Both the position numbers and the translations under genes were made by a program. Source: an uncultured Planctomycetales bacterium (GTDB taxonomy: Bacteria > Omnitrophota > Gorgyraeia > Gygaellales > Profunditerraquicolaceae). Taken from it: DNA of 64,000 nt. The notes beneath the pieces were generated by a model that saw only the letters and a list, made by a program, of their open reading frames with translations, made no database searches and had not been told where the DNA came from. This document shows positions 1,058-38,251 of the stretch, in pieces (positions within the stretch are counted from its first letter, which is position 1; every line of letters starts with the position of its first letter). The DNA is taken from positions 31,848-95,847 of the forward strand of contig CAZJFL010000007.1 in NCBI GenBank assembly GCA_964545575.1, given 5' to 3'.

Positions 1058-3016
1058 TTACGCTTCCTCTTCCTGTTTCTTGGTGGCCTGGTATTGCGTG
1101 ATGATGCCGGAGGCGATCTTATGCGGGACCTGTTCGTAATGCGAGAAACGCATGGTATACATACCTCTTCCGCCGGTAAGCGAACGCAGGTCATTGGCAT
1201 AGGTAAACATCTCCGCCAGCGGCACATTCGCCTTGACTACCTGAGACCTTCCTTTAATATCCATGCCCATGATGCGGCCGCGCCGGGAGTTTATATCACC
1301 GGAGATAGCGCCGAGGAAATCTTCCGGTATCAGAATGTCTACCGACATGATCGGTTCTAAGAGAACCGGGCCGGCTGCCTGAACCGCTTTTCTTAAAGCC
1401 ATGGCCCCGGCAATCTGAAAAGCCATATCCGAGGAGTCCACTTCATGATAAGAGCCGTCAACAAGCCTAACCTGTAAATCTACTATCGGATATCCGGCTA
1501 CTGCTCCTTCGCTGGCGGCCTGCCGGATACCTTTTTCTGCAGAGGGGATAAAATTTCTCGGTATTGCCCCGCCGAAAATCTTATCCACGAACTCAACGCC
1601 TTTTCCGCTTTCTAAGGGCTCTACCTCAATCCAGACGTCTCCGTATTGCCCGCGGCCGCCTGACTGGCGCTTAAACTTACCCTGGACTTTGGTGCCCTTG
1701 GTAATCGTCTCCTTGTAGGAAACTTTCGGGGTGCCTAATTCTACTTCCACGTTGAACCTTTTTTTCATCCGCTCTATCATCACCGAAAGATGCAAGTCTC
1801 CTAAACCGGAAACAATCAGCTCTTTGGTCTGGGGGTCATGGGTCACGGTAAAAGTAGGGTCCTCCGTCGCAAGTTTGCTCAAGGCTCCGGAGATCTTATC
1901 TTCGTCCTGGCGGGATTTGGGCTTTACCGAAGCGGATATTGCCGGCTCCGGGAAAACGAGCGGCTCAAATAAAACCTGATTTTTTTCGTCGGTAAGCGAA
2001 TCCGAAGTTGCTGTTTCTTTCAATTTAGCTATGGCGGCTATATCTCCGCAGGAAACCTCATCCACCGGCCTTTGCTCTTTACCCTGTAAAATATAGATTT
2101 GGCCGATTCTCTCCCTGTTTCTTTTGTTGGCGTTATAAAAACCGGTATTGGAAGCCAGGGAGCCGGAGAAGATGCGCAAAAGCGAAAGTTGGCCGACATA
2201 AGGGTCGGATATCGACTTAAAGACAAAGGCAGCAAAAGAGCCGTCTGCTCCAAGGATGAGCTCCTTTTTATTTTGCGGATCCACCGGCAGAGATACTTCT
2301 ACTTTTTCCCGCTCCGCAGGATTAGGCAGGCACTGGATAACCGCATCCAATAATTCAGCTATTCCTTTTTCATTTAAGCCTGAACCGGACAACACCGGAA
2401 ATACCTTACGCTTAATTACTGCCTGATGCAAACCAATTTTTAATTCTTCGGGGGATAGCTGGGTGCCTTCCAGATACTTCTCTATTAATTTGTCGTCACT
2501 CTCTGCGATAGACTCGACTAATTCCGGATTATCCAGGGAGTTTACGGGCAGGGCTTTTTTGGAAAGCCGGGATTGGATATCGGCTAAAACCTTCTCGGGG
2601 TCCGCTCCTTCTTTATCAAGCTTATTGATGAATATTAAGCAGGGTAGGTTGTTTTCTTCTAATACCTGCCAGGCGCGCTCGGTGCCTACTTCTACTCCGG
2701 AGATAGCGTCTACCACAATAACCGCCGCGTCTATCGCGCGGATCCCCGATATTACTTCACCGAAAAAATCCGCATATCCGGGGGCATCGATAATTTGAAT
2801 CCTGATATCCTTATAATCACAGAATAATAAACTTGAGCTGATGGAGCTTTTTCTTTCTATTTCATCAAAGCTATAATCGCTGACAGTAGTGCCGTCGGCA
2901 ACCGTTCCTTTGCGGTTTGTGGCCTTAGAGAAATAGAGCATGGCCTCGGCAAGGGTGGTTTTACCGGATTGGGCGTGCCCCAGAAGGATGAAATTGCGTT
3001 TATTCCTGGGATCCAT
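1058..3016 (-). CDS. Elongation factor G family GTPase (EF-G paralog, 652 aa)
   Basis: G1 GHAQSGKTTL, G3 IIDAPGYADF and G4 NKLD are present, with EF-G domain order through domains III-V. It is shorter than canonical FusA. Confidence 0.75.
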   Translation of the reverse strand: MDPRNKRNFILLGHAQSGKTTLAEAMLYFSKATNRKGTVADGTTVSDYSFDEIERKSSISSSLLFCDYKDIRIQIIDAPGYADFFGEVISGIRAIDAAVIVVDAISGVEVGTERAWQVLEENNLPCLIFINKLDKEGADPEKVLADIQSRLSKKALPVNSLDNPELVESIAESDDKLIEKYLEGTQLSPEELKIGLHQAVIKRKVFPVLSGSGLNEKGIAELLDAVIQCLPNPAEREKVEVSLPVDPQNKKELILGADGSFAAFVFKSISDPYVGQLSLLRIFSGSLASNTGFYNANKRNRERIGQIYILQGKEQRPVDEVSCGDIAAIAKLKETATSDSLTDEKNQVLFEPLVFPEPAISASVKPKSRQDEDKISGALSKLATEDPTFTVTHDPQTKELIVSGLGDLHLSVMIERMKKRFNVEVELGTPKVSYKETITKGTKVQGKFKRQSGGRGQYGDVWIEVEPLESGKGVEFVDKIFGGAIPRNFIPSAEKGIRQAASEGAVAGYPIVDLQVRLVDGSYHEVDSSDMAFQIAGAMALRKAVQAAGPVLLEPIMSVDILIPEDFLGAISGDINSRRGRIMGMDIKGRSQVVKANVPLAEMFTYANDLRSLTGGRGMYTMRFSHYEQVPHKIASGIITQYQATKKQEEEA

Positions 3017-3133: not shown

Positions 3134-4315
3134 TTATTCCAGGTAAGTGTAGATTTTCCCGCGGTAATTGCGTAAGACGTATTTTCCTTTGGCCTGCGAA
3201 AGGATGTAGTTAGGCCCCACGGGTATTTTACCGCCGCCGCCCGGGCCGTCGATAACATACGTCGGCACCGCATATCCTGAAGTGTGGCCTCTTAGTTTCT
3301 CCATGATATTGATCCCGACGGCAACCGGGGTGCGGAAATGCTGTGTGCCCCTCACCGGGTCGCACTGATAGATGTAATAAGGCCTGACCCGGATCTGCAG
3401 TAATTCATGCACGAGTTTTTTCATGATGTAAGGCCTGTCGTTTATGCCTTTTAAAAGCACGCTCTGGCTGCCTAAAGGAATCCCGCTATCCGCCAGCATA
3501 TCGCAGGCGGTTTTACAGCGCCTGGTAATTTCTTTGGGATGATTGAAGTGGATGCTCACCCAGATAGGGGCATATTTTTTTAGCATGGCCACCAGATTCT
3601 CGGTGATGCGCTGGGGCAGGGTTACCGGCACACGCGTGCCGATCCTTAAAAACTCCACGTGCGAGATAGAACGGATCTTCTGAATCAAGCTTTCAATTTC
3701 TTCGTCCTCTAAGATAAAGGGGTCTCCTCCGGAAATCAGCACATCCCTGATTTTACGGTTTGATTTTATGTATTCGACGGCGGCATCAAATCTCGACGCG
3801 GAATTATCTTCTTTATGGTCTCCGACTAACCTGCGCCGGGTGCAATGCCGGCAGTACATCGCGCACTGCTCGGTGGCTAATAACAGGACTCTGTCCGGAT
3901 AGCGATGCACCAGATGCGGTGCCGGAGAATCCCTGTCTTCCGCGCAAGGATCGACCATTTCGTGCGGGGCAACCACAAACTCCGAAGCCACGGGAACTGC
4001 CTGGCGCCTTAAGGGGCAAGTAGGGTCTTCCGGGTCGAGCAGGTTCGCCCAATAAGGAGTAATCGCCAGAGATAGCCGGCCGCTAGCCTTCTTTATCCCC
4101 TCTTCTTCTTCGGGGGTCAATTTTATGATCTCCGCCAGTTCTTCGCGGGCACGTATCCGGTGTTTTATCTGCCAATGCCAATCCTCCCAATCCAGGGGAT
4201 TGACATCCTTATAAAGGCTAATTTGCTGATAATCAAGCGACCTCCTGCCGGGGCGAGGCGGCGCTTGGGGCTCCTGTAATAATTTTTGGTTCTCCGTTAC
4301 CGCGGTATGATTCAA
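3134..4315 (-). CDS. kamA: L-lysine 2,3-aminomutase (radical SAM, KamA/AblA family)
   Basis: Near-collinear match to Clostridium KamA, including the CAMYCRHCTRRR radical-SAM/PLP motif, YPDRVLLL and HFNHPKEIT. Confidence 0.85.
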   Translation of the reverse strand: MNHTAVTENQKLLQEPQAPPRPGRRSLDYQQISLYKDVNPLDWEDWHWQIKHRIRAREELAEIIKLTPEEEEGIKKASGRLSLAITPYWANLLDPEDPTCPLRRQAVPVASEFVVAPHEMVDPCAEDRDSPAPHLVHRYPDRVLLLATEQCAMYCRHCTRRRLVGDHKEDNSASRFDAAVEYIKSNRKIRDVLISGGDPFILEDEEIESLIQKIRSISHVEFLRIGTRVPVTLPQRITENLVAMLKKYAPIWVSIHFNHPKEITRRCKTACDMLADSGIPLGSQSVLLKGINDRPYIMKKLVHELLQIRVRPYYIYQCDPVRGTQHFRTPVAVGINIMEKLRGHTSGYAVPTYVIDGPGGGGKIPVGPNYILSQAKGKYVLRNYRGKIYTYLE

Positions 4316-5313
4316 TTTAGCCTTGTCCTTTCCGAGGCGCTGGTCAATATCGCCTCAATCAGCTCTTCGTATTTCATGCCCGCAGCATAAGCCATCATCG
4401 GAAAATTAGATTCCTTAGGGTCTAGCCCGGGCAGAGGATTTATCTCCAAGACGTAAGGCGTGTTATCTTTGCTTAAACGGATATCGGTGCGGGAAATATC
4501 AAAGCAACCTACTGCGCGGTGCGTCCGCAAAGCGGCTTCCTTGACGCGCTCTTCGGTTTCTCTATCCAGGCGCGCAGGGCAATGGAACGTCGGCACCAAC
4601 CCTAAATCCGCATTGCCCTGGTATTCCTTCATCCTCCAGGAATAAAAATATTCACCGCTTTTTGCGCAAGCCGAAAAATCTATCTCCAAAATAGGCAAGA
4701 TCATCGTCTTTCCGTTCTCCAGGACCCCCACGGTCAGCTCTTTCCCGTCGATAAACTCTTCCACGATTACTTCGTGTTTATAGGCATTAATGATTTCTCT
4801 GATTTTAGCAAAAAGCATCTCTTTAGTATGCACTACGTTTGAGGCGTTGATGCCCTTGGCCGAGCCTTCACGGTTAGGTTTGACAATGAGCGGGAATCTT
4901 AAATCCGGGATCAGCTCTTCACTGCCCTTGGCAAATACCTGGAAGCGCGGGGTAGGTATATTTTCTGCTTTTAGGATTTTTTTGGTGAGCGCTTTGTTTA
5001 AGGCCATGGCCAGCGATAAAGTATTGGAGCCGGTGTAAGGTATGTTTAAATAATCCAGTATCGCCGGAATCTCCGACTCTCGGAACTTTCCGGACGAGCC
5101 CTCGGCGATATTAAAGACCATGTCCACGGGGTTCTTCCTAAAATATGAAAAGAGGTTTTCCCTGCCGGCATTGACCGCATCCACGCTATGGCCGTTTTTC
5201 TGGATTGCCGAGACGATTGCCGAGACGGTCTCTTCGGAATCAAACTCGGAAAAATAATCCGCCGGCTTGCTGGAATCTTTTTCTTTTAAATTATAAGTTA
5301 AGGCGATCTTCAT
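4312..5313 (-). CDS. D-alanine--D-alanine ligase family ATP-grasp enzyme (paralog 1)
   Basis: 333 aa with a Ddl-like ATP-grasp layout (FPLIVKPNREGSAKGI, VEEFIDGKELTVGVL, EINPLPGL). Overlaps kamA by 4 nt. Confidence 0.7.
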   Translation of the reverse strand: MKIALTYNLKEKDSSKPADYFSEFDSEETVSAIVSAIQKNGHSVDAVNAGRENLFSYFRKNPVDMVFNIAEGSSGKFRESEIPAILDYLNIPYTGSNTLSLAMALNKALTKKILKAENIPTPRFQVFAKGSEELIPDLRFPLIVKPNREGSAKGINASNVVHTKEMLFAKIREIINAYKHEVIVEEFIDGKELTVGVLENGKTMILPILEIDFSACAKSGEYFYSWRMKEYQGNADLGLVPTFHCPARLDRETEERVKEAALRTHRAVGCFDISRTDIRLSKDNTPYVLEINPLPGLDPKESNFPMMAYAAGMKYEELIEAILTSASERTRLN

Positions 5314-6303
5314 CTAATTCAAATCGTACCTTTTAAGCGCGCTGTCTAAAATCTTTCCGATCATCTGCTCGTAAGAAATACCGGTCTCTTTGGCCACCAA
5401 TAAAAATACGTCCTCCGTCGAGAGAGACGGCAAAGGATTTATCTCTAAGACATAAACGCGGCCTTTGTTATCCACCCGGAAATCCACCCTGCCGAAATCG
5501 CGGCACTCTACCGCGTTATATGCCTTAAGCGCTAAATCGCAAAGTTTCCTCTTTAGATCGACGCTAATGTGCGCGGGGCAGATATATTCTAACCTATCCG
5601 AGGTGATCCGCGCGAAAGTATAGAACTTATCGTTGAGCTTGAAACGGCCGTCTATCTTTATCTGCACCACCGGCATCGCTTCCGGGGGGTCGTTACCGAC
5701 TACGGCGACGGTAAATTCCTGGCCGGAAATAAACTCTTCCACCAGCGCCGGCTGTTTGTAGGTATTGATTACGAATTCAGCCTGCCTTTTTAATCCTTCC
5801 ATGTTTTCCACCCGGGAATCTTCGCTTAAACCTTTGGAGGAGCCTTCGAAACGCGGCTTGACGATCAGGGGAAATTTCAGATGGTCCATATCCACTAAGG
5901 AATCCGTATTTTTTACTTCAAAAAATTTCGGGGTGGGTATCCCTTCGCTGATAAAGATTCTTTTGGCCATAATCTTATCCAGCGTCATGCCTAAGGTAAG
6001 GGCATCTGCGCCCACAAAAGGAATCCCCCTCATCTCTAATAATACCGGGACTTGCGATTCCCGGTTTCTGCCGGATACGCCTTCGGAGATGTTAAAAACA
6101 ATATCTACGCCCAGATTATCTATTTTTTCCAGGAGATTGGAGACGTTGCCGATTTTTTTTACCGGGAAACCACAGGCTTTAATGGCGTCGGCAATGACGT
6201 CAATGGTAGAGGGATGGTCGAATTCCGCGTTGGCATCCGGGGGATCGCCCTCTTTAAACTCGTAATCTGTCTTTAAATCGTATGTTAACCCTACGGTTTT
6301 CAT
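5314..6303 (-). CDS. D-alanine--D-alanine ligase family ATP-grasp enzyme (paralog 2)
   Basis: 329 aa, paralogous to the neighbouring gene (FPLIVKPRFEGSSKGL, VEEFISGQEFTVAVV, EINPLPSL). Directly abuts paralog 1. Confidence 0.7.
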   Translation of the reverse strand: MKTVGLTYDLKTDYEFKEGDPPDANAEFDHPSTIDVIADAIKACGFPVKKIGNVSNLLEKIDNLGVDIVFNISEGVSGRNRESQVPVLLEMRGIPFVGADALTLGMTLDKIMAKRIFISEGIPTPKFFEVKNTDSLVDMDHLKFPLIVKPRFEGSSKGLSEDSRVENMEGLKRQAEFVINTYKQPALVEEFISGQEFTVAVVGNDPPEAMPVVQIKIDGRFKLNDKFYTFARITSDRLEYICPAHISVDLKRKLCDLALKAYNAVECRDFGRVDFRVDNKGRVYVLEINPLPSLSTEDVFLLVAKETGISYEQMIGKILDSALKRYDLN

Positions 6304-6322
6304 AAAGTTATGGCCTCATTTA

Positions 6323-6358
6323 AAAAATAAGGGCCCTCTTACTTCTTGAGCCCTTTAA
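6323..6358 (-). terminator. Hairpin plus U-tract between the UPF0280 gene and the ATP-grasp/kamA genes (possible terminator or attenuator)
   Basis: Minus-strand RNA: AAGGGC-UCAAGAAGUAAGAGG-GCCCUU followed by AUUUUUU, lying 20 nt upstream of the ATP-grasp start codon. Confidence 0.3.
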
Positions 6359-6504
6359 TTTACCCCTTTATTTTTCCAACTTAATTTATTTAACCTCCCT
6401 AAAATTCTCTCAACTCATTCATACATATTGTATTAACAACTATTTTTAACATAATATCTTGTCGTTGTCAAGTAATTTTTGAATTTCAGGGGGCTAAGCG
6501 GAGG

Positions 6505-7266
6505 TTATTTTATCGACGGAGGAATTGAAAAATGGCTGAGAGAGACCTTGCCCCAGCCGATAAGATTATTTTTAATGATGACCACGACACCGATAACGCC
6601 CTTTATGGACCTGGCAAAATCCAGCGCCTTCTCTAAATCCGCCTTGGACTGGACCCGGTTACAGATAGCAGTGGCTGCGGCATCGGCCAAAGAGGCGTTC
6701 TTGGCCAGAATCACCACGCTATCCGCACAACCAAAACTTAAAGAATGCCCTATTGTCCCCGAAGAAGTACAAATACCCAGGGGAGTATCTTGCGGGCGTA
6801 TCTTAAGCACCAATCCTTTCCATAGCTTGGACTTTCCTGCGTATATGGCGATGTTGCGTGTTTTTTTTGTGACTAAAAATACATCTCCTCCGTTTTCAAT
6901 AATCACTTCTTTGTAACCTCCAGCTAATAAATCTTTGCCTAAAAAAGAGGCTATGGCTCCCGCCACGGTTGCCATCGGCCCGACGCCGGCTTTCTTGGCC
7001 TGCCTGCTCATTTCTTTTACGATTGCGGCTGCGTTTATCTCAACCTCCAAAGGCTTAAGGCTGGTCAGGAATTTTGCGTCTTTACTAATATAGTTTTCTA
7101 TCTGTCTGCGGTAAAGCCGCACTCTTTTTTTAGCGAAATCTTGGTCTAACGGCTTATCGGCGAGGATTACTAAATCCGTTTCTCTCTCGACAATATGCGC
7201 CGAATGCAGATCCTTGTGCCCAGCCCAATCGCGATAAAATCTTCTTCGATATTTATTGCTTTTCAT
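6505..7266 (-). CDS. UPF0280/ApbE-like family protein
   Basis: GVGPMATVAGAIASFLG...GICTSSGTIGHSLSFGCADSVVIL resembles the UPF0280 (COG2122) signature. Confidence 0.5.
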   Translation of the reverse strand: MKSNKYRRRFYRDWAGHKDLHSAHIVERETDLVILADKPLDQDFAKKRVRLYRRQIENYISKDAKFLTSLKPLEVEINAAAIVKEMSRQAKKAGVGPMATVAGAIASFLGKDLLAGGYKEVIIENGGDVFLVTKKTRNIAIYAGKSKLWKGLVLKIRPQDTPLGICTSSGTIGHSLSFGCADSVVILAKNASLADAAATAICNRVQSKADLEKALDFARSIKGVIGVVVIIKNNLIGWGKVSLSHFSIPPSIK

Positions 7267-7268
7267 CT

Positions 7269-8276
7269 TTAACAGATGCGCGGCAGCGGGTCGCCGATAA
7301 GCATATCAAGGATACGCCGTGTGCCTAAAACAGTATTCAGTATTACGCGGCCTTTAGGCTCTTTAATTACGGTACCGATCTCCCGGGCCCGGCGGCCTAA
7401 GGGATGCTTTCTTAAAAAATTTAAGACCTTTTTGCTCTCTTGCTGCTTTACCACCAAGACCGCCTTTCCTTCATTAGCCACATACAAGGGGTCTATGCCC
7501 AGCAGCTCGCCAGCAGCCCTGACCTGGCTGGAGATAGGTATATTTTTCTCGTCGATAATAATTCCTAATTTGGAAGCTTCGGCAATTTCATTTAAGGTGG
7601 TAGCTACGCCACCCCTGGTCGGATCGCGCATAAACTTTATGGCGGAGGTTTGTTGAAGCAGGCCGATCAGCATTTTATTTAAGGCCGCGCAGTCGCTTTT
7701 TATATTAAAGCCGAAATCCAGCTCTTTTCTTTTGGCTAAAACCGCCAGGCCATGCTGGCCGATATTTCCGGTAAGAATGATTTTATCCCCTGCTCTGATA
7801 TTGGCGATAGCAAGCTTCCTGTTTTTAAGAATCCTGCCGATGCCGGAAGTATTAATGAATAGTTTATCGCAGGCACCCTTCTCCACTACCTTCAGGTCTC
7901 CGGTAACAAAAAGTATGCCTGCGGCCCTGGCATTCATGGCGATAGAATCAACGACCTGCTCCAGTATCTTGTAATCCAGGCCCTCTTCGATGATCAGCGC
8001 TAAAGAAAGGTATTCCGGGACGGCGCCCAGCATTACTAAATCGTTTACCGTGCCGCAGACTGCCAGCTTCCCGATGTCTCCTCCGGGAAATCTTAAAGGG
8101 CTGACCACAAACGAATCTGTGGAAAAAGCGAGCTTCTCTTTATAGCCGATGTAAGCGCTGTCGCTAAGCTCCCTTAAGACCGGATTATTTAATTTCTCTA
8201 GCAGAAGCCCTTTGATTAAACCGTGCATCAGCCTGCCTCCGCTACCATGACTAAGTAATATCTGTTTATTAAACAT
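7269..8276 (-). CDS. hypE: Hydrogenase maturation carbamoyl dehydratase HypE (PurM-like)
   Basis: N-terminal HGSGG, PurM-like fold and the diagnostic C-terminal PRIC motif. Confidence 0.8.
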   Translation of the reverse strand: MFNKQILLSHGSGGRLMHGLIKGLLLEKLNNPVLRELSDSAYIGYKEKLAFSTDSFVVSPLRFPGGDIGKLAVCGTVNDLVMLGAVPEYLSLALIIEEGLDYKILEQVVDSIAMNARAAGILFVTGDLKVVEKGACDKLFINTSGIGRILKNRKLAIANIRAGDKIILTGNIGQHGLAVLAKRKELDFGFNIKSDCAALNKMLIGLLQQTSAIKFMRDPTRGGVATTLNEIAEASKLGIIIDEKNIPISSQVRAAGELLGIDPLYVANEGKAVLVVKQQESKKVLNFLRKHPLGRRAREIGTVIKEPKGRVILNTVLGTRRILDMLIGDPLPRIC

Positions 8277-8294
8277 ATTTTGTTTGGAACATTA

Positions 8295-8348
8295 GAATTT
8301 AAACTTTAGGATTTGTTTAGGATTTCGGATTTAGAATTTAGGATTTCT
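8295..8348. repeat. GGATTT/TTAGGATTT short-repeat tract (dispersed family, copy A)
   Basis: The plus strand reads tttaggatttgtttaggatttcggatttagaatttaggatttc. The same unit recurs near 11722-11770 and 14780-14940. Confidence 0.5.
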
Positions 8349-8968
8349 ATATCAATACCTGCATCAACAAGGTCCTTTTTGAGTTGTTCTATTCCTGTAA
8401 AAACAGCGCCCTTGATGCCTAATCCGGCGGCAATCTCTACGAGCTCCGGCCTGTCGTCGGTGTAAAAGACTTTTTCCGGCGCCTCTACCCCTAAAGCTTC
8501 CAGCGCCCGGCTATAAATTAGGGGGTGGGGTTTACGCATCCCCAACTCAAAAGAAGTAAGCACGCAATCAAAAGCGTCGAAAAGGGGAAAAATCTGCTTC
8601 AGGTAATTAAAGTGCAAAACGTTGATATTGGAAAGCAGCGCTGTTTTATACCTGCCTTTAAGCGTCTTAGCCAACTTATAGACGCCGCTGTTCTCCCTGG
8701 TTAAAAAGAAAATCTCATTCCAGATAGGCAGAAAATCTTTGTAATCCAGTTTTAAATTGAGCATCTCCCTTACCCTGGAGAAAAAATCCTGGGATGAAAT
8801 TTTGCCTTCTTCGAAGAGCCCGGTAATTCCGGAATCAAAAAAAAGACCGAATATTTCCTGCTCGGTTTTATCGGTAAACCCGGATATTCTCCTGGCGGCG
8901 ATATTATGATCAAAGCTGATCAGGACGTTGCCTAAATCAAAAATAACCGCTTCTATTTTATTTTCCAT
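8306..8968 (-). CDS. HAD-superfamily hydrolase
   Basis: Motif I VIFDLGNVL and the HAD core. The C-terminal KSEILNKS is encoded by an AAATCC/GGATTT repeat tract. Confidence 0.6.
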   Translation of the reverse strand: MENKIEAVIFDLGNVLISFDHNIAARRISGFTDKTEQEIFGLFFDSGITGLFEEGKISSQDFFSRVREMLNLKLDYKDFLPIWNEIFFLTRENSGVYKLAKTLKGRYKTALLSNINVLHFNYLKQIFPLFDAFDCVLTSFELGMRKPHPLIYSRALEALGVEAPEKVFYTDDRPELVEIAAGLGIKGAVFTGIEQLKKDLVDAGIDIEILNSKSEILNKS

Positions 8969-9960
8969 TAATTACCCTTAGGCTTGCCCTGTTTTTTCTT
9001 AAATAAATCCAGGAACCTGTCTTCGTATTCTTTATACACATTCCATTTATCTAGCTCTGTCTTTAATTCGCCGGCCTTGGCAATATCGGTCTTAGCTTGC
9101 ACAAAAAGCCTTTCGATATTTTCCTTCACCGAAACCGGCAGTTTGGTAAGCTGGCTGAGATATTTTTTTATCTTCTCTATCTCCTCTTCTCCGATGGGAG
9201 CGGCGGCCTGGCCGAGCTTTAAATAATCCAGTAGTTTATTGATTTCTCCTTCGGTGGCATGTATCTGTTCAACTAGCCCTGTAAAATCTATTTTTATCTC
9301 TAGCATCCTGCCTAAGGCCTCTAAAACCGCCAGGGACGCCTTGGGATTTTCAACCTGGATAGTGTAAAGCGGTATTTCTCCGAGCAGGCAGAAGCCTTCC
9401 AGGCCCGCTCTTTTCGCTATCCCTAAAAATAAACCGTTCATGCCGCTGATCTGGCCTTCGGATAAAAGATTCAAATTATATGCTTTAAAATTATCTTTGA
9501 CCTGCGCGGAGGTTGCGGCAAACCAGACTCCAGCCTGCTGGGTATGGTCAATGGCCTGGGGCATCGCGGCAAAGCTGATTACCGTCTTTACTTTGAAAGT
9601 AGCGGCAAGCTCCAGTATCCGCTTGCAGTAATCGCCGGCTTTGGCTAAATCCGGCTGGGCATTGCTAATAAAAATAATCAGGTCGCGCCCGCCTTGGGGG
9701 TTACTCCAAAAATAAAACTTGCTGTAAGGAAGCTCCGGCGCCGATAATAAGCCTTCCCGGACAACGCTGCCGGTAAGATAAAAAAACTCTTCGGGCGCAA
9801 TCCGGGTAAACTCTTCGGCTTTCAGTTTTTCCACTAAATAGCTTGCTGCTTTAAAAGCCACCTCGCCCATACCCGGCCAGGCAACAATTAAATAGGGGTC
9901 TTTAAGTTTGGGTTTTTTATCCATCTTTAGTTCCTTTCTCATCTGCCGGCGCTTAATCAA
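8968..9960 (-). CDS. PAC2-family (proteasome-assembly-chaperone-like / ATP-grasp superfamily) protein
   Basis: Its size and the N-terminal YLIVAWPGMGEVA...segment are reminiscent of the PAC2/COG1938 family. This is a weak, memory-based assignment. Confidence 0.35.
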   Translation of the reverse strand: MIKRRQMRKELKMDKKPKLKDPYLIVAWPGMGEVAFKAASYLVEKLKAEEFTRIAPEEFFYLTGSVVREGLLSAPELPYSKFYFWSNPQGGRDLIIFISNAQPDLAKAGDYCKRILELAATFKVKTVISFAAMPQAIDHTQQAGVWFAATSAQVKDNFKAYNLNLLSEGQISGMNGLFLGIAKRAGLEGFCLLGEIPLYTIQVENPKASLAVLEALGRMLEIKIDFTGLVEQIHATEGEINKLLDYLKLGQAAAPIGEEEIEKIKKYLSQLTKLPVSVKENIERLFVQAKTDIAKAGELKTELDKWNVYKEYEDRFLDLFKKKQGKPKGN

Positions 9961-11087
9961 GCTTTAAACCTATATTGCTTTAAAAACTCTTCTAATACCA
10001 GTGCCCCTTTATAGAGGCTGTTTATCTTGGCGTATTCATCCGCGGTATGCGCTAGACCTTCCGAGCCAAAACCTGTAGCTACTGCTGGGATAAATTTATC
10101 CTGGAAGAAAGTAATCACGGTTGCCCCCTCCGAACCCTTAATTTGCGGCTTAAGAGAAACTTTTCTCATCGCAGAAGTTAAACACTTTACCAGGGGATGA
10201 TTTGTCTGTATCGCATAAGGTTTTTGAATATCCTCTATCTCTATTTTAAACCTCTTTGCATGTTTGCCGACTACCGTCCTAATATATTTTAATAACTCTT
10301 CTGCTTCCGTGCCCGGTAAAAACCGAAAGTCCGCCTCAAACTCGCACCAATCAGCCACGACATTTACTTTATCCCCGCCTTTGATGGTCCCGATATTCAT
10401 GGTCGGCGGCCGAAGATACGGATTCCCGGCATAAGCGAATCTGTGATTTTTTAGTTCTTGAATGATACCCACCGCTGCCTCAATCGCGTTTACCCCCAGC
10501 CACGGATAGGCGCCGTGTGCCCTCCTGCCCTGGATTTTTACTTTAAGATGTATCAAGCCTTTCTGGGTAATAACGACGGAAAAATCATCGGAATCTAAAA
10601 CTACCGCTGCATCCGGCTTTAATATGCCTAATTCTAGTAAAGGAATTAACCCGAGAGATGAACCGCTCTCCTCATCCGCGGTAGCAGCAAAGATTAGATT
10701 ATAATCTAAAACCGCGCCATCTTCAACTAAACTATTTATCGCCTCCAGGCCGCAGGCCAGATTTCCTTTACAATCAGTAGCGCCTAGGCCGTAAATTTTA
10801 TTTTTATGGATTTTAGCGGCAAAAGGAGGAAAACACCAGCTTTTTCCGGCAGGCACGGTATCTAAATGCGGAGTGAGTAAAAGCGAATGTTTACCCCCGG
10901 CTCCTTTTAATACCGCTATTACATTAGAGCGTTCTTTTTTAAAATCGTAAATACGGACTTTTAGCCCTAAATTATCCAGGTATTTTTTTACCCAGCAGGC
11001 TATCCTGGATTCGTTGCCGCCGGGATTCTCGGAATTAATCCTGATTAATTGCCGCGTAATTTTTATTAACCTTTTTTTATTAACCAT
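9957..11087 (-). CDS. M20-family metallopeptidase/deacylase (ArgE/DapE-like)
   Basis: LLLTPHLDTVPAG, GATDCKGNLA and ATADEESGS are typical M20 metal-binding motifs. Confidence 0.7.
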   Translation of the reverse strand: MVNKKRLIKITRQLIRINSENPGGNESRIACWVKKYLDNLGLKVRIYDFKKERSNVIAVLKGAGGKHSLLLTPHLDTVPAGKSWCFPPFAAKIHKNKIYGLGATDCKGNLACGLEAINSLVEDGAVLDYNLIFAATADEESGSSLGLIPLLELGILKPDAAVVLDSDDFSVVITQKGLIHLKVKIQGRRAHGAYPWLGVNAIEAAVGIIQELKNHRFAYAGNPYLRPPTMNIGTIKGGDKVNVVADWCEFEADFRFLPGTEAEELLKYIRTVVGKHAKRFKIEIEDIQKPYAIQTNHPLVKCLTSAMRKVSLKPQIKGSEGATVITFFQDKFIPAVATGFGSEGLAHTADEYAKINSLYKGALVLEEFLKQYRFKA

Positions 11088-12456: not shown

Positions 12457-15029
12457 TTGCGAAGTTCCAAGATTATCCTTTGCTTTACCTTTTTAGCCAG
12501 GACCTCCAGGAATTTCTTAAAATCCCGGTATTCGCTTTCGGTTATTCTGTTTTTCTTTAATTCCGTGCTCTGTTTAACATATATTTTGTTTGCCTTACGG
12601 ATATACTCAAGGTTAAAGCTTAACCAGGGGGAGTCGCTGGCGATATTTTCGGGCATATATTTTAGGGTGAAATTATCGGGGATAGTAATCTCTAAAATAG
12701 ATTCTTTGCTATCCATGACTCCAAAATCAAGCGGGTATTTGCGTACGGCTTTGGCTACGAAAGAAGTATCCAGGGAAGCAAACCCCGGGGCTATCCTTAA
12801 GTTTCCCGCCAGAGTAAAGTACTCCGGGCCGCTAAAGGCATAATCCAGGCTTACCGGGGTATTTAAATCTTCTAAGTTTTTAATCTGGTACTGCCTGAGC
12901 TCCGCGCCGATAGAAACCTCCTGTATTTTTTCCTTCAATGCCTCTGCAATCAGTTCCGGCGGAGTGTGCAACAGCCAATACCTTTGCGCCTGATCATAAA
13001 TACCGTAGGTAAAAATGGATTTCTGGGCAGCAATAGATTCATTACCCTGCACCTCAATTTTAAGATATTGCCGGGTCAGGTTATGCTGCGCCGGGTAAAA
13101 AGGTATGTCTTGTATCTGGCATTTATCTTCTTTAATCACTAATACCGACCTGCCCTGGTCCATCGCGGGAAGATCTCTGAAAGAACAAGTCTCTGCCGTG
13201 GGGTCAAGAAATACGGTTTCGCCGTCCAGCGCCACCGCGGCGATAGCGTGGTTAAAAAGCATGGCGGGAAATCCCGGATCTAAGTTATAATATTCTTTGG
13301 TGGGGATCAGCACCGGCCAGGCCTTTATCCCCGCTTCCGTTAGCATCGTAACTAAAAGTATAGCCTGGTCTTTACAGTCGCCGTATTTATTCCTGAAAAT
13401 ATCCTCGGCCTTGTGCGGCTCGTAACCGGCCTGCCCGTATTCCACCGCCACATAACGGATTTCTTTGGCGCAGAAATTATAAACCGCCCTTGCCTTCGCT
13501 TCCAAGGATTCGGCGCCGGAAATCAACTCTCTGACTTTATCTTTGATGGGAGCATCGGCTTTTATTTTATCTTTGGCTAGCCGCCACCACCAGCTGTATA
13601 TATCCTCCCAGGGCTGAAACGTAGAGACCAGGATAGTGGGATTTATTTCTATATTGGGCGGCATGCTGGGTTCCGGGAGTATCTGCGGGATATTATTGAA
13701 CTGCCAGCTATAAATTAAGCTGCCGTTCTGTTTCTCTATCCGGGGCTTTAATTCAGCGGTGAAATTATTGTATTTTTCATTCAAATCTTTAAGGTGCAGG
13801 GTTTTATTTTCGGGCAGAAAAAGCCTAAAATCAGCCCTGATAATCGGCTCTGACGCTTGCACCGGATAGCTGAAAGCAAAATCTTTTTTATTGATCAGCT
13901 GGTTGCGATAAATTTTTACTTTGTATTCTATTACCGAACCTTCTGCGATTTCGGGAAAAGAAATAATATAAACCCGGGCATTGCTGTAGAGCGGAAAATT
14001 AAGGTACTTGGAGACATCGCGGATATGGCGGGAGCCGACCTCCACCACTTTGCCGTCCGGCCGGATGGTACGGGCATACTCCAACTCCACTTTTTCGTAA
14101 GTAGAATCGTAATCTATATGGCTCTCCGAAAAACCTTCCTTACCGCGCTCATTAAGGATCTTCACCAGGTAATATAAAGAAGAAACCAGCGAATTCTGCG
14201 GCGTAACTTCTATTTTTTCGTCGCAATATAAAACCAGCGCACCGGCCTGCGGGTAATCTTCTGCCTTTGGCGCGCCTTTGATCATTTCGGCGACCTTAGG
14301 GTCTAGCTCGGATATATCCCTTAGATTGACCTGCCTTTCAATGATATTGGCCCGCCCTAAGGCAAAGGAGGTGAATTCTTTTGCTTTTATTTTTTTATAG
14401 GTATCCAGCGCCTTGTCAAAAAGGTTTAATTTTTCGCAGGTTAATCCCTGATAATAGAGGTATTCGTCGTCGGGAATCTCGTTTTTATTAAAGACCTCCA
14501 TGGCGTCGGTGAAATTACCGATGCGGTAATAGGAGATAGCGAGTAATTTCCTGGCGGGTAGAGTGTCTATATTTTCCAGCGCTTCTGTTGCTTTTTCAAA
14601 TTCGCCGTGCTCATAATATAGTTTCCCCAATTCAAAACGCAGATTACCTTGTTCAGCGCCTTTGGCGATTAAATCCCGCTGTATCTTTAAGGCACGCTGA
14701 TAACTGGCCTCTGATTGACGGGCGTACTTTTGGACCCGCTCCATCTCACTTTTTTGGGTACACCCCGTTAATAGGAAGGCGAGACATGCAACAATCAAAA
14801 TCCTAAACTCTAAACTCGAAATTCTAAACAAATCCCAAATTCTAAATTCAAATGTTCTAAACGAACTCTGTTTTGAGTTTTGAACATTGGGATTTTGATA
14901 TTGTTTAGGATTTAGGATTTCGGATTTCGGATTTACCGTTTTAGCGGTATTTATAATATGCATTACAGGCTCCTTCGCTAGAAACCATACACGGGCCAAT
15001 GGGATTATCCGGCTTACATATTTTAGCAA
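12453..15029 (-). CDS. Transglutaminase-like lipoprotein with TPR region (DUF3857-like N-domain; start probably downstream of ORF start)
   Basis: Carries the TGase core YGDCKDQAILLVTMLTEAGIKAW, TPR-like repeats, and a lipobox LLTGC after a hydrophobic segment. The ORF-track start overlaps the 3' end of hypD by 88 nt, and the N-terminus is encoded by a palindromic repeat tract. The real start is therefore likely near 14800. Confidence 0.5.
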   Translation of the reverse strand: MLKYVSRIIPLARVWFLAKEPVMHIINTAKTVNPKSEILNPKQYQNPNVQNSKQSSFRTFEFRIWDLFRISSLEFRILIVACLAFLLTGCTQKSEMERVQKYARQSEASYQRALKIQRDLIAKGAEQGNLRFELGKLYYEHGEFEKATEALENIDTLPARKLLAISYYRIGNFTDAMEVFNKNEIPDDEYLYYQGLTCEKLNLFDKALDTYKKIKAKEFTSFALGRANIIERQVNLRDISELDPKVAEMIKGAPKAEDYPQAGALVLYCDEKIEVTPQNSLVSSLYYLVKILNERGKEGFSESHIDYDSTYEKVELEYARTIRPDGKVVEVGSRHIRDVSKYLNFPLYSNARVYIISFPEIAEGSVIEYKVKIYRNQLINKKDFAFSYPVQASEPIIRADFRLFLPENKTLHLKDLNEKYNNFTAELKPRIEKQNGSLIYSWQFNNIPQILPEPSMPPNIEINPTILVSTFQPWEDIYSWWWRLAKDKIKADAPIKDKVRELISGAESLEAKARAVYNFCAKEIRYVAVEYGQAGYEPHKAEDIFRNKYGDCKDQAILLVTMLTEAGIKAWPVLIPTKEYYNLDPGFPAMLFNHAIAAVALDGETVFLDPTAETCSFRDLPAMDQGRSVLVIKEDKCQIQDIPFYPAQHNLTRQYLKIEVQGNESIAAQKSIFTYGIYDQAQRYWLLHTPPELIAEALKEKIQEVSIGAELRQYQIKNLEDLNTPVSLDYAFSGPEYFTLAGNLRIAPGFASLDTSFVAKAVRKYPLDFGVMDSKESILEITIPDNFTLKYMPENIASDSPWLSFNLEYIRKANKIYVKQSTELKKNRITESEYRDFKKFLEVLAKKVKQRIILELRK
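14780..14940. repeat. Large imperfect palindrome built from AATCCTAAA / TTTAGGATT repeats (dispersed family, copy C)
   Basis: The left arm reads aatcctaaactctaaactcgaaattctaaac...; the right arm reads gtttaggatttaggatttcggatttcggattt. The arms are reverse complements of each other. Confidence 0.5.
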
Positions 15030-38129: not shown

Positions 38130-38155
38130 CTCCCGCACAACCCTTATCTTGTCGC

Positions 38156-38230
38156 GGGACAGTCCCCGCAGGAGGCGGGGCACCAAACCATCCGATAGGT
38201 TTGGGTGCCTAACCCTTCGGGGACAGTCCC
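38156..38230. repeat. Two-hairpin ~50-nt repeat element, copy 2, flanked by palindromic GGGACAGTCCC direct repeats
   Basis: gggacagtCCCCGCAGGAGGCGGGGCACCAAACCATCCGATAGGTTTGGGTGCCTAACCcttcggggacagtccc. Confidence 0.55.
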
Positions 38231-38251
38231 TAGCTGCAGTACGTATTATAA

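What the first reader, a model, noticed from the sequence alone, without database searches (positions are those of the whole stretch)
3134..11087. Lysine 2,3-aminomutase followed by two tandem Ddl-like ATP-grasp ligases in an operon with UPF0280, HypE, HAD, PAC2-like and M20 deacylase genes
KamA makes beta-lysine. The two D-Ala-D-Ala-ligase-family ATP-grasp enzymes immediately downstream overlap or abut kamA and are paralogs of each other. They are positioned to ligate beta-lysine (or lysine) to another amino acid or to itself. This gene combination does not match the known fates of beta-lysine, which are:
- N-epsilon-acetyl-beta-lysine via a GNAT (AblB);
- EF-P beta-lysylation via EpmA/EpmB;
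- fermentation via KamDE.

Upstream on the same strand, with minimal spacing, lie an M20 deacylase, a PAC2/ATP-grasp-superfamily-like protein, a HAD phosphatase and a UPF0280 protein. This is consistent with a small-molecule (beta-lysine-containing peptide or compatible-solute-like) biosynthetic module. A hairpin plus U-tract and an AT-rich candidate promoter (TTGACA...TAAAAA around 6440-6470) separate the kamA/ATP-grasp triad from the upstream genes. The triad may therefore be its own regulated unit.
Basis: inference. Interest (0 to 1): 0.65.

Follow-up and report, generated by a model that had tools for sequence, protein, structure and literature searches.

The report
Conserved beta-lysine ligase gene trio
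Two D-Ala-D-Ala-ligase-like enzymes and a lysine 2,3-aminomutase form a separately regulated three-gene unit that is conserved across Omnitrophota and fused into single proteins in many archaea and other bacteria; it most likely makes a small beta-lysine-containing peptide that nobody has yet described.

Summary
They lie on the minus strand, so the transcription order is ATP-grasp 1, ATP-grasp 2, KamA.

- **KamA.** It is a lysine-type 2,3-aminomutase: 57% identical to the C. subterminale enzyme, with all substrate and cofactor residues kept. It is not EpmB, although it lacks the C-terminal zinc/multimerisation domain.
- **ATP-grasps.** Both have a full Ddl fold and intact catalytic residues. 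They fall below NCBI's Ddl cut-offs and differ at D-Ala-site positions.
- **Linkage.** The trio is intact in essentially every one of 80 Omnitrophota genomes examined. KamA and Ddl-like domains are fused, in both orders, in about 100 protein clusters from Thermoplasmatota, DPANN archaea, Deltaproteobacteria and Spirochaetes. Each of the four examined outside Omnitrophota with flanking sequence on both sides had a further ATP-grasp gene beside it.
- **Regulation.** A near-invariant promoter and an 88-nt leader ending in a terminator precede the trio and occur nowhere else in 1.2 Mb.
- **Upstream genes.** M20, PAC2, HAD, HypE and UPF0280 are variable neighbours, not part of the module.

The product is unknown and I found no literature on it. 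I rate it a new variant of a known kind, of moderate-to-high interest.

The parts
6442..6471 (-). Promoter: -35 TTGACA (6471-6466), 17-nt spacer, -10 TAAAAA (6448-6443), preceded by an A-rich tract
   Evidence: An exact TTGACA occurs in 75 of 77 orthologous upstream regions against 4.5% by chance. A -10-like hexamer at N16-18 occurs in 73 of 77.
6449..6462 (-). Operator-like near-palindrome (ACAAGATATTATGT; consensus about ACAATATATTGT) inside the promoter spacer
   Evidence: Seen in the anchored alignment of 65 upstream regions. Its function is inferred only.
6421..6433 (-). Second copy of the operator-like motif (ATACAATATGTAT) just downstream of the -10
   Evidence: Inferred only.
6323..6409 (-). 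Conserved 88-nt leader: TTTT-GGGAGG (6399-6394), 14 nt, TTGGAAAAA (6379-6371), then the terminator
   Evidence: Covariance model R1 scores 68.8 bits here. It gives one hit per locus in 78 of 84 Omnitrophota sources, always directly 5' of grasp1. There are no other hits in 1.22 Mb and none in non-Omnitrophota loci. No Rfam family matches.
6368..6379 (-). Candidate leader mini-ORF TTG GAA AAA TAA (M-E-K-stop), 14 nt after the GGAGG
   Evidence: The first 2-3 codons are conserved (MEK, MKK, MKN). In 36 loci scored, the ORF is 3 codons long in 12. In 7 loci it is 20-22 codons and ends in an ATGA overlap with the grasp1 start. Translation has not been shown.
6322..6355 (-). Intrinsic-terminator-like hairpin (AAGGGC...GCCCTT) plus the T-run TTATTTTTT, ending 18 nt before the grasp1 ATG
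   Evidence: It is the only consensus structure in the 32-sequence alignment: 7 pairs, one of them covarying, with the stem sequence itself conserved.
5314..6303 (-). ATP-grasp ligase 1 (329 aa), Ddl fold, 'GRNRES' subfamily
   Evidence: - PF07478 E=1.4e-39. NF002378 scores 186.9, below the cut-off of 243.
- AlphaFold2 model has pLDDT 94. The best PDB folds are all Ddl, at TM about 0.8 and 22-26% identity.
- Catalytic residues K110, K149, E189, R272, D274, E287 and N289 are invariant.
- Ddl substrate positions have changed: H63>E, E68>R, K215>I, Y216>T, G276>S, S281>D.
- More than 120 90%-identity clusters are at least 79% identical.
4312..5313 (-). ATP-grasp ligase 2 (333 aa), paralogue of ligase 1 (37% identity)
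   Evidence: -. NF002378 scores 202.7, below 243.
- Catalytic residues are invariant.
- It keeps the Ddl-like K215, G276 and S281, but has H63>E, E68>K/R, Y216>E and L282>N.
- It is present between grasp1 and KamA in all sufficiently long Omnitrophota loci except L083.
3134..4315 (-). Lysine 2,3-aminomutase (KamA/AblA type, 393 aa), short form without the C-terminal Zn/multimerisation domain
   Evidence: - TIGR03820 scores 528.9 (cut-off 525.4). EpmB scores 251.9 (cut-off 369.3) and glutamate aminomutase 478.6 (cut-off 650).
- It is 57% identical to 2A5H over 362 ungapped residues and ends at the equivalent of residue 367 of 416.
- C151/C155/C158, R160, D319, D356 and K363 correspond to C125/129/132, R134, D293, D330 and K337.
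- The Zn ligand C268 is replaced by R294.

Best explanation
The unit is promoter, leader/attenuator, ATP-grasp 1, ATP-grasp 2, KamA (window 6471-3134, minus strand). It is a self-contained, separately regulated biosynthetic module.

Proposed mechanism:
1. KamA, a radical-SAM/PLP enzyme, converts free L-lysine to beta-lysine. This follows from conserved residues and family knowledge.
2. Each of the two Ddl-fold ATP-grasp ligases then activates a carboxylate as an acyl phosphate and forms one amide bond. This is the family mechanism, and the catalytic residues are intact.
3. The end product would be a small beta-lysine-containing peptide or isopeptide with two new amide bonds.

No other precursor-making enzyme travels with the module in any lineage. 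The simplest product is therefore a short beta-lysine oligomer, or beta-lysine joined to common amino acids. One ligase per bond would explain why relatives carry two or three ATP-grasp domains per KamA.

The role is most likely a cytoplasmic metabolite made on demand, either an osmolyte-like or a polycationic solute. A conserved promoter with an operator-like palindrome and a leader terminator with a mini-ORF control expression. The order of the two ligations, the co-substrates and the physiological role are all inferred, not shown.
For: 1. KamA identity. It reaches the TIGR03820 equivalog score. It is 57% identical to the solved LAM. R134, D293, D330, K337 and the CxxxCxxC motif are all conserved.
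2. Both ligases keep every ATP/Mg/transition-state residue of Ddl. Grasp1 models confidently as a complete Ddl fold.
3. Conserved linkage. The triad is intact in all sufficiently long loci of 80 Omnitrophota species-level genomes, while the flanks vary.
4. Rosetta-stone fusions.
   - Grasp-then-KamA fusions (P0190 lineage) form at least 11 clusters at 47-100% identity.
   - KamA-then-grasp fusions account for about 100 of the 120 listed clusters. Their sources name them as Thermoplasmatota, Woesearchaeota, Nanoarchaeota, Methanocellales, Spirochaetales and Deltaproteobacteria.
   - Grasp-grasp fusions also exist.
5. Further ATP-grasp genes sit beside KamA in four loci outside Omnitrophota: L094 (one), L095 (one, fused to a GNAT), L096 (two), and L089 (separate KamA, double grasp and single grasp). 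Two fusion loci of the P0190 grasp-then-KamA lineage, L086 and L088, have no further ATP-grasp gene.
6. In 119 such proteins the KamA domain keeps R134, D330 and K337 in 119 of 119, and D293 in 109 of 119.
7. Autonomous regulation. Promoter conservation is 75 of 77. The leader/terminator model hits once per locus in 78 of 84 sources and nowhere else in 1.22 Mb.
8. Possible hints at an osmolyte-like role. The Woesearchaeota locus lies next to MscL, Na+/H+ and Na+/Ca2+ exchangers and CorA. A GNAT domain is fused to the second ligase in L095; AblB, the beta-lysine acetyltransferase, is also a GNAT, but this domain's only listed NCBIfam match is PseH-like.
Against: - No product is known, and substrates cannot be read from sequence.
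- The residue-based guesses rest on a MAFFT alignment to an E. coli DdlB sequence that I recalled from memory. Residues 50-304 were checked. The N-terminal 50 residues align poorly.
- A short beta-lysine oligomer would be strongly cationic, which is unlike classical compatible solutes.
- The osmotic-context hint comes from a single locus.
- One Omnitrophota genome (L083) lacks grasp2.
- The two Omnitrophota ligases do not pair one-to-one with the 'fused' and 'partner' ligase types of archaea in a rough NJ tree. Products may therefore differ between lineages.
- I did not establish whether Omnitrophota carry a separate canonical ddl elsewhere in the genome.
Confidence: 0.65

Rival explanations
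1. Same chemistry but a different role. The module makes a secreted or conflict-related cationic beta-lysine oligopeptide, comparable to the beta-lysine chain of streptothricins. Ultra-small, possibly host-dependent cells (Omnitrophota, DPANN) would use it against or on partner cells.
For: - The module is enriched in lineages named as Omnitrophota, Woesearchaeota and Nanoarchaeota.
- The number of ligase domains varies (2-3), as in natural-product tailoring.
- L089 has a P450 and an amino-acid permease next to the module.
- Expression is tightly regulated.
Against: - No exporter, resistance or immunity gene is consistently adjacent.
- The ligases are 70-95% identical across a whole phylum and sit in a housekeeping neighbourhood. 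That is atypical for conflict systems.
- There is no PADLOC match.
Confidence: 0.15
2. Protein modification. The ATP-grasps attach beta-lysine to a lysine of EF-P or another translation factor, replacing EpmA. KamA would then be a functional EpmB.
For: - KamA lacks the C-terminal multimerisation domain, the hallmark that separates YjeK/EpmB from LAM (PMC2821294).
- In most Omnitrophota loci the triad is followed by an EF-G paralogue and a YchF-like gene.
Against: - The EpmB model scores 251.9 against a cut-off of 369.3, whereas the AblA model passes.
- KamA is 57% identical to LAM. YjeK is about 33% identical (PMC2821294).
- There is no efp or epmA in the window or in 80 loci.
- The EF-G paralogue has its own strong promoter (3092-3064, 11 of 12 matches). 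It is absent from several loci, and outside Omnitrophota.
- The module is common in archaea. They use aIF5A with hypusine rather than beta-lysylated EF-P (my own knowledge).
- Two to three ligase domains are unnecessary for a single attachment.
- To my knowledge no Ddl-type ATP-grasp is known to use a protein amine as nucleophile.
Confidence: 0.07
3. M20 deacylase, PAC2, HAD, HypE and UPF0280 belong to the same pathway as the triad, for example in carrier-protein or deacylation steps.
For: - The genes are co-directional and tightly spaced in this window.
- M20-PAC2-HAD lies within about 5 kb upstream of the triad in roughly three quarters of Omnitrophota loci that have enough upstream sequence.
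- From my own memory, and untested here: B. subtilis kamA lies in an operon with an M20 deacetylase.
Against: - The entire 64-kb window is on one strand.
- A conserved promoter and leader terminator lie between UPF0280 and grasp1.
- HypE is a hydrogenase maturation protein (TIGR02124, 437 bits). Both HypE and UPF0280 are variably present.
- The block is absent upstream of the triad in L001, L009, L011, L018, L023, L031, L035, L036 and others.
- It is also absent from every non-Omnitrophota module.
Confidence: 0.08
4. The two ATP-grasps are simply the organism's cell-wall D-Ala-D-Ala ligases, and their adjacency to kamA is coincidental.
For: - The best HMM and structure matches are Ddl.
- I did not find another ddl, but only 64 kb of the genome was available.
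Against: - Both are below all NCBIfam Ddl cut-offs (203 and 187 against 243).
- They score 208 bits or more against family members but 124 bits or less against any solved Ddl or VanA.
- D-Ala-site residues have changed: H63>E invariantly, Y216>T/E, and in grasp1 K215>I and S281>D.
- They are fused to KamA in about 100 clusters, including archaea that lack murein.
- They are not in a mur/fts context.
- They are preceded by an attenuator.
Confidence: 0.03

Closest known systems
AblA/AblB pathway for N-epsilon-acetyl-beta-lysine (methanogens, some bacteria)
   Same: The first step is the same: a LAM-clade lysine 2,3-aminomutase. The window protein reaches the AblA equivalog score. Beta-lysine is then capped by amide-bond formation. 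In one archaeal relative (L095) a GNAT domain is fused to the second ligase.
   Different: There is no AblB-type GNAT next to kamA or anywhere among the ORFs scanned in the 64-kb window. Two ATP-dependent Ddl-fold ligases take its place. KamA also lacks the C-terminal Zn/multimerisation domain.
EpmB/EpmA (YjeK/YjeA) beta-lysylation of EF-P
   Same: A KamA-family enzyme without the C-terminal multimerisation domain feeds beta-lysine to an ATP-dependent amide-forming enzyme (PMC2821294).
   Different: The sequence is LAM-clade, not the EpmB clade. The partner is an ATP-grasp, not a LysRS paralogue. There is no efp or epmA linkage. There are two to three ligase domains. The module is widespread in archaea.
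PylB/PylC of pyrrolysine biosynthesis
   Same: The logic is the same. A radical-SAM enzyme isomerises L-lysine to an unusual diamino acid, and a Ddl/CPS-superfamily ATP-grasp then ligates it by an amide bond. PylC's family relationship is stated in PMC2933860. The reaction details are from my own knowledge.
   Different: PylB is biotin-synthase-like, not KamA-like, and makes 3-methylornithine. PylC is not among the PDB sequence matches of these ligases. There is no PylD, PylS or tRNA.
D-Ala-D-Ala / D-Ala-D-Lac ligases (DdlA/B, VanA)
   Same: Same three-domain fold (TM about 0.8) and identical catalytic residues.
   Different: Identity is only 22-29%. Scores are below the family cut-offs. Residues lining the D-Ala sites have changed. 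There is a distinct 'NI(A/S)EG..G(R/K)xRES' motif in place of 'HG..GEDG'. There is no cell-wall gene context, and the family is present in murein-less archaea.
ATP-grasp L-amino-acid ligases and tandem ATP-grasp pathways (BacD/YwfE, BL00235, MysC/MysD)
   Same: Stand-alone ATP-grasps build small peptides one bond per enzyme.
   Different: Sequence similarity is only remote: 3VOT matches at E=5e-6 and 6e-8. None of these pathways is coupled to an aminomutase. The comparison with MysC/MysD and BacD is from my own knowledge and was not tested here.

Membership tests
Lysine 2,3-aminomutase (KamA/AblA, TIGR03820) | Equivalog HMM score at or above the curated cut-off | tested here: met
   528.9 against 525.4, which is marginal because the last 57 model positions are missing.
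Lysine 2,3-aminomutase (KamA/AblA, TIGR03820) | Radical-SAM CxxxCxxC, PLP lysine (K337), alpha-carboxylate Arg134, epsilon-ammonium ligands Asp293 and Asp330 | tested here: met
   C151/C155/C158, K363, R160, D319 and D356, from the ungapped alignment to 2A5H. The residue roles are from my own knowledge of the 2A5H structure and the glutamate-aminomutase comparison.
Lysine 2,3-aminomutase (KamA/AblA, TIGR03820) | C-terminal multimerisation domain with the inter-subunit Zn site (C268 plus C375/C377/C380) | tested here: not met
   The protein ends at the equivalent of residue 367 of 416, and C268 is replaced by R294.
Lysine 2,3-aminomutase (KamA/AblA, TIGR03820) | Conversion of L-lysine to beta-lysine, and the product's stereochemistry | not testable with these tools
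   Needs an anaerobic enzyme assay.
EpmB/YjeK (EF-P beta-lysylation) | Equivalog HMM score (TIGR03821) at or above the cut-off | tested here: not met
   251.9 against 369.3.
EpmB/YjeK (EF-P beta-lysylation) | Lacks the LAM C-terminal multimerisation domain | tested here: met
   Criterion taken from PMC2821294.
EpmB/YjeK (EF-P beta-lysylation) | Gene clustering or co-occurrence with efp and epmA | tested here: not met
   tblastn with E. coli EF-P and EpmA gave no hit in the window or in 80 Omnitrophota loci of +/-8 kb. The query sequences were recalled from memory. The rest of the genome was not available.
Cell-wall D-Ala-D-Ala ligase (Ddl) | Three-domain Ddl/ATP-grasp fold with ATP/Mg/transition-state residues (K97, K144, E180, R255, D257, E270, N272) | tested here: met
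   Pfam PF07478. AlphaFold2 pLDDT 94, with all top PDB folds being Ddl. The residues are invariant in 79 grasp1 and 70 grasp2 sequences.
Cell-wall D-Ala-D-Ala ligase (Ddl) | NCBIfam Ddl subfamily scores at or above the cut-offs (NF002378 243; TIGR01205 245.65) | tested here: not met
   Grasp2 scores 202.7 and 173.4. Grasp1 scores 186.9 and 160.9.
Cell-wall D-Ala-D-Ala ligase (Ddl) | D-Ala-site residues (H63, K215/Y216 of the omega loop, G276, S281, L282) | tested here: not met
   H63>E in all sequences. Y216>T in grasp1 and E in grasp2. Grasp1 also has K215>I, G276>S and S281>D. Grasp2 has L282>N. The alignment in the omega-loop region is uncertain.
Cell-wall D-Ala-D-Ala ligase (Ddl) | Cell-wall (mur/fts) gene context and restriction to murein-bearing organisms | tested here: not met
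   No mur or fts genes in the window. Close family members are fused to KamA in Thermoplasmatota, Woesearchaeota and Nanoarchaeota.
AblA/AblB N-epsilon-acetyl-beta-lysine system | AblB-type GNAT adjacent to the aminomutase | tested here: not met
   No GNAT among the neighbours or among the minus-strand ORFs of at least 150 aa that were scanned, which is all of them except three. A GNAT is present only in the archaeal relative L095, fused to an ATP-grasp.
Known riboswitch or leader families (Rfam 15) | Match of the 5' leader to any curated RNA family | tested here: not met
   Only chance-level hits, E of 3.7 or higher.

The most novel reading that the evidence does not exclude
KamA plus two or three Ddl-fold ligases is the biosynthetic signature of a hitherto unknown, widespread beta-lysine-derived metabolite. 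A candidate is a defined beta-lysine oligo-isopeptide, in some lineages N-acylated by a fused GNAT. This metabolite would be a core physiological molecule of anaerobic, often ultra-small lineages (Omnitrophota, DPANN archaea, Thermoplasmatota). In Omnitrophota its synthesis would be controlled by a new leader-peptide/terminator attenuator that senses lysine, beta-lysine or the product.
Probability: 0.35. Interest if true: 0.8.

Novelty: new variant of a known kind. Interest (0 to 1): 0.62.

Why it matters
The known fates of beta-lysine are few: acetylation, EF-P modification, fermentation and NRPS-type antibiotics. This module would add an ATP-grasp route.

It is not a curiosity of one genome:
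- It is a fixed feature of a whole candidate phylum.
- It recurs, as gene fusions, in many archaeal and bacterial lineages that have no cultured representatives.

It gives enzymologists a defined three-protein system to reconstitute. It points to an unknown metabolite in organisms whose physiology is almost entirely inferred. It also supplies a strongly conserved, unclassified leader that could be a new attenuator.

Finally, it shows that 'D-alanine-D-alanine ligase' annotations on these genes, as JGI assigns them, are probably wrong.

Tried and rejected
- **Literature.** Ten full-text searches were run. Seven of them combined aminomutase/KamA/beta-lysine with ATP-grasp, D-alanine ligase, Omnitrophota or archaea, and found no paper describing this gene combination. 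The only KamA hit in the Aravind 'lipocone' paper was the author name Kamada. A blasticidin + ATP-grasp + aminomutase search also found nothing, so I did not use that recalled precedent.
- **Riboswitch.** Rfam gave nothing. The leader does not fold better than shuffles, z=0.79. RNAalifold finds only the terminator hairpin. I therefore rejected a structured riboswitch in favour of a protein- or ribosome-read leader.
- **Leader ORF as an N-terminal extension of grasp1.** Rejected because it is out of frame.
- **Defence system.** No PADLOC match.
- **Reaching beyond Omnitrophota with the single genome-contig scan.** This failed. Distant lineages were reached instead through the 50%-representative search and the two remaining homologue searches.
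- **DUF2156/LPG_synthase_C as a partner.** It directly follows the fusion gene in L088. The window's copy is 12 kb away and only 21% identical. Not pursued.
- **PylC kinship by sequence.** Not found among PDB matches.
- **Orthology of grasp1 and grasp2 with the archaeal 'fused' and 'partner' ligases.** The NJ tree was too poorly resolved to claim it.

Full report
**Observation**

Pfam and NCBIfam confirm every assignment:
- 3134-4315: KamA-family radical-SAM aminomutase.
- 4312-5313 and 5314-6303: two Ddl-family ATP-grasps, 37% identical to each other.
- 6505-7266: UPF0280/PRK04334.
- 7269-8276: HypE (437 bits).
- 8306-8968: HAD.
- 8968-9960: PAC2.
- 9957-11087: ArgE/DapE-type M20.

The transcription order is therefore M20, PAC2, HAD, HypE, UPF0280, a 200-nt gap, ATP-grasp 1, ATP-grasp 2, KamA. 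The aminomutase is the last gene, not the first. The three core genes abut with zero or negative spacing.

Every ORF of at least 150 aa that reads as a real gene lies on the minus strand across all 64 kb; the three plus-strand ORFs of that size sit inside minus-strand genes. Co-orientation with the upstream genes is therefore not evidence of an operon. The closest homologues are labelled Candidatus Omnitrophota.

**The aminomutase**

- The protein aligns without a single gap to the C. subterminale lysine 2,3-aminomutase structure 2A5H. Query residues 32-393 match chain residues 6-367, at E=8e-147 and 57% identity.
- It just reaches the AblA equivalog cut-off: 528.9 against 525.4.
- The glutamate, arginine and EpmB models are all far below theirs: 478.6 against 650, 414.6 against 600, and 251.9 against 369.3.
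- The CxxxCxxC cysteines, Arg134, Asp293, Asp330 and Lys337 are all present, as C151/155/158, R160, D319, D356 and K363. From my own knowledge of 2A5H and of the glutamate 2,3-aminomutase comparison, the two aspartates bind the epsilon-ammonium group of lysine. I therefore read the substrate as free L-lysine.
- The protein stops 49 residues short of the LAM C-terminus, and the Zn ligand C268 is replaced by Arg. The inter-subunit zinc site and the multimerisation domain are therefore missing.
- That truncation is the structural hallmark of YjeK/EpmB (PMC2821294). However, YjeK is only about 33% identical to LAM and clusters with efp. Here there is no efp or epmA homologue in the window or in 80 related loci.

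**The two ATP-grasps**

- Both hit PF07478 strongly but stay below every NCBIfam Ddl cut-off.
- Against solved structures the best sequence matches are Ddl/VanA at 124 bits or less. A profile of the family reaches 144 bits at most, and no solved structure lies within the family.
- By contrast, the 150 best 50%-identity representatives all score 208 bits or more. Some 1184 representatives have E of 1e-30 or lower. This is a large, distinct subfamily.
- An AlphaFold2 model of grasp1 (pLDDT 94, pTM 0.92) is a complete three-domain Ddl fold. All top PDB neighbours are Ddl, at TM about 0.8 and 22-26% identity.
- I aligned 79 grasp1 and 70 grasp2 sequences with E. coli DdlB. The DdlB sequence was recalled from memory, and residues 50-304 were verified.
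  - All ATP/Mg/transition-state residues are invariant: K97, K144, E180, R255, D257, E270, N272 and S150. Both enzymes should therefore be active.
  - Residues around the D-Ala sites differ. H63 becomes E throughout the family. The 'GEDG' motif is replaced by 'G(R/K)xRES'. Y216 becomes T or E. In grasp1, K215 becomes I, G276 becomes S and S281 becomes D. Grasp2 keeps K215, G276 and S281.
- One speculative reading follows. Grasp2 would accept an amine substrate that still carries a carboxylate, as D-Ala2 does. Grasp1 would accept something without a carboxylate at that spot, or with a cationic group there. I do not rely on this.

**Are the three genes a functional unit?**

- In 80 species-level genomes from the GTDB scan, all 69-82% identical in grasp1, the order grasp1-grasp2-KamA is intact wherever the contig is long enough. 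Most are labelled Omnitrophota. A few carry generic labels such as 'uncultured Planctomycetales'. The single exception is L083, which lacks grasp2.
- The flanks vary.
  - M20-PAC2-HAD lies upstream in roughly three quarters of the loci that have enough sequence.
  - HypE and UPF0280 are each present or absent independently.
  - In L001, L009, L011, L018, L023, L031, L035, L036 and others, unrelated genes precede the triad.
  - Downstream, an EF-G paralogue and a YchF-like gene are common but not constant.
- The stronger evidence is from fusions. Representatives include:
  - ATP-grasp-then-KamA (P0190);
  - KamA-then-ATP-grasp (P0233, P0261);
  - ATP-grasp-then-ATP-grasp (P0123, P0124, P0188 and many more).
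- The P0190 lineage has at least 11 clusters at 47-100% identity.
- A search with P0233 returned about 100 fused clusters among the 120 listed. Their sources name them as Thermoplasmatota, Woesearchaeota, Nanoarchaeota, Methanocellales, Spirochaetales and Deltaproteobacteria. Some of them retain a full LAM C-terminal domain.
- Outside Omnitrophota I examined six loci that carry the module. Four of them have further ATP-grasp genes beside KamA:
  - one in a Woesearchaeota locus (L094);
  - one fused to a GNAT in L095;
  - two in a Deltaproteobacteria genome (L096);
  - a separate KamA plus a double grasp plus a single grasp in L089.
- The other two, L086 and L088, carry a P0190-type grasp-then-KamA fusion with no further ATP-grasp gene. 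L088 is followed by a DUF2156 protein instead.
- In 119 of these proteins the KamA domain keeps R134, D330 and K337 (119 of 119) and D293 (109 of 119).
- The conserved core is therefore a lysine-type aminomutase with, in Omnitrophota and in those four loci, two or three Ddl-fold ligase domains. None of M20, PAC2, HAD, HypE or UPF0280 follows the module outside Omnitrophota.

**Regulation**

- An alignment of 32 upstream regions shows the following, in order:
  - TTTT-GGAGG;
  - 13-14 nt;
  - AAATTG(G/A)AAAA;
  - about 20 nt;
  - a GGGCTC/GAGCCC hairpin;
  - a T-run.
- A covariance model built from this alignment finds exactly one copy, directly 5' of grasp1, in 78 of 84 Omnitrophota sources.
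  - This holds regardless of which gene lies upstream.
  - There are no hits elsewhere in 1.22 Mb, and none in the non-Omnitrophota loci.
- Upstream of the leader, 75 of 77 loci carry an exact TTGACA against 4.5% by chance. It is followed at fixed spacing by T(G/A)TGATAAAAA.
- A palindrome of about ACAATATATTGT sits in the spacer and again after the -10. It looks like an operator.
- Rfam has no match. The leader is not unusually stable. The only consensus structure is the terminator. A classical riboswitch therefore seems unlikely.
- The TTG after the GGAGG opens a mini-ORF whose first codons are conserved (MEK, MKK, MKN).
  - It is 3 codons long in 12 of the 36 loci scored.
  - It is 20-22 codons long in 7 loci, where it ends in an ATGA overlap with the grasp1 start codon.
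  - In many loci grasp1 has no Shine-Dalgarno sequence of its own.
- I read this as a candidate leader-peptide/terminator attenuator, with a repressor-controlled promoter in front. Both are inferred.
- Whatever the details, the triad is an autonomous transcription unit. The EF-G paralogue downstream has its own near-consensus promoter (3092-3064).

**Most likely mechanism**

1. KamA makes beta-lysine from lysine.
2. Each ATP-grasp activates a carboxylate as an acyl phosphate and couples it to an amine.
3. The outcome is a small peptide or isopeptide containing beta-lysine.

No other precursor enzyme is conserved with the module, and the number of ligase domains varies from two to three. The most economical product is therefore a short beta-lysine oligomer, or beta-lysine linked to common amino acids, with one ligase per bond.

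Two observations may hint at an osmolyte-like or otherwise intracellular role, but they are weak:
- the GNAT fusion in L095, since AblB is also a GNAT (its only listed NCBIfam match is PseH-like);
- the MscL, Na+/H+ exchanger and CorA neighbourhood in L094.

The logic resembles PylB/PylC, where a radical-SAM lysine isomerase is followed by a Ddl-superfamily ligase (PMC2933860 for the family relationship; reaction details from my own knowledge). The proteins are not members of those families.

**Rivals**

- **Bona fide cell-wall Ddl** is disfavoured. The scores, the changed D-Ala-site residues, the attenuator, the fusions to KamA and the presence in murein-less archaea all count against it.
- **EF-P-type protein modification** is disfavoured. 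The HMM scores, the absence of efp/epmA linkage, the archaeal distribution and the multiplicity of ligases all count against it.
- **A conflict or antibiotic role** for the same chemistry remains possible.
- **The extended eight-gene operon** is not supported.

**Novelty**

Within the searchable literature I found nothing on this gene combination. NCBI names the proteins generically as 'ATP-grasp domain-containing protein' or 'KamA family radical SAM protein'. JGI calls the ligases 'D-alanine-D-alanine ligase'.

The parts belong to known families and the chemistry is predictable, so this is a new variant of a known kind rather than a new category. Its breadth across phyla, the unknown product and the unclassified leader make it a worthwhile target.

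Noticed in passing
A GGAGG-N13/14-TTG mini-ORF has conserved first codons; in 7 loci it runs through the terminator and ends in an ATGA overlap with the grasp1 start. An operator-like palindrome (about ACAATATATTGT) is present twice around the -10. In many loci grasp1 has no Shine-Dalgarno sequence of its own.
   Followed up: partly
window 1-64000: Every ORF of at least 150 aa that looks like a real gene, and all four tRNAs, lie on the minus strand across the whole 64 kb.
   Followed up: no
window 45540-57752 (minus): A single giant ORF of 4070 aa. It was not analysed.
   Followed up: no
window 356-1057 (minus): A 233-aa YchF-like protein that matches only the C-terminal part of YchF (TIGR00092 positions 266-367) and has no recognisable P-loop. 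It is conserved downstream of the triad in most Omnitrophota loci.
   Followed up: partly
window 1058-3016 (minus), promoter-like site 3092-3064: A 652-aa EF-G family protein (NF009381, 850 bits) with a near-consensus TTGACC-17-TATAAT promoter. It is shorter than typical EF-G and matches in two stretches. It is present after KamA in many relatives but not all.
   Followed up: partly
window 18156-19067 (minus); L088 4843-5808: A stand-alone LPG_synthase_C/DUF2156 protein (303 aa) lies 12 kb from the triad. A member of the same Pfam family (21% identity) directly follows the ATP-grasp-KamA fusion gene in L088.
   Followed up: partly
L092 7001-10116; L093 7001-10126: Double ATP-grasp proteins of the same subfamily that are not linked to KamA are immediately followed by a Peptidase_S58 (DmpA/BapA-family) gene in two unrelated contigs. 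To my knowledge that peptidase family acts on D-Ala and beta-amino-acid peptides.
   Followed up: no
window 16230-17351, 14941-16032, 7269-8276 (minus): Hydrogenase maturation genes are scattered among unrelated genes, with no hydrogenase structural gene in the window. They are a 373-aa protein with only the HypF C-terminal/Kae1-like domains, HypD (read from its sequence only, not scanned) and HypE.
   Followed up: no
window 38252-38326 (minus): tRNA-Arg(CCG) overlaps the mechanical ORFs 37590-38312 (SLOG/LDcluster4) and 38305-38796 (flavodoxin-like). Their real boundaries must therefore differ from the ORF list.
   Followed up: no
window 38798-41347 (minus): An 849-aa ORF whose only Pfam signal is a sub-threshold Intein_splicing match (31.7 against a cut-off of 35.8).
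   Followed up: no
L083 311-2542: One Omnitrophota genome has grasp1 followed directly by KamA with no grasp2 (64-nt gap). This could be a real loss or an assembly artefact.
   Followed up: no
L086 12150-12272: A 40-codon ORF (MHEVRKIVINRVQGVKGPGVQVKNVEKMTGKRNQKNHLNP) overlaps the end of the ATP-grasp-KamA fusion gene and is also called in L087. Its significance is unknown.
   Followed up: no
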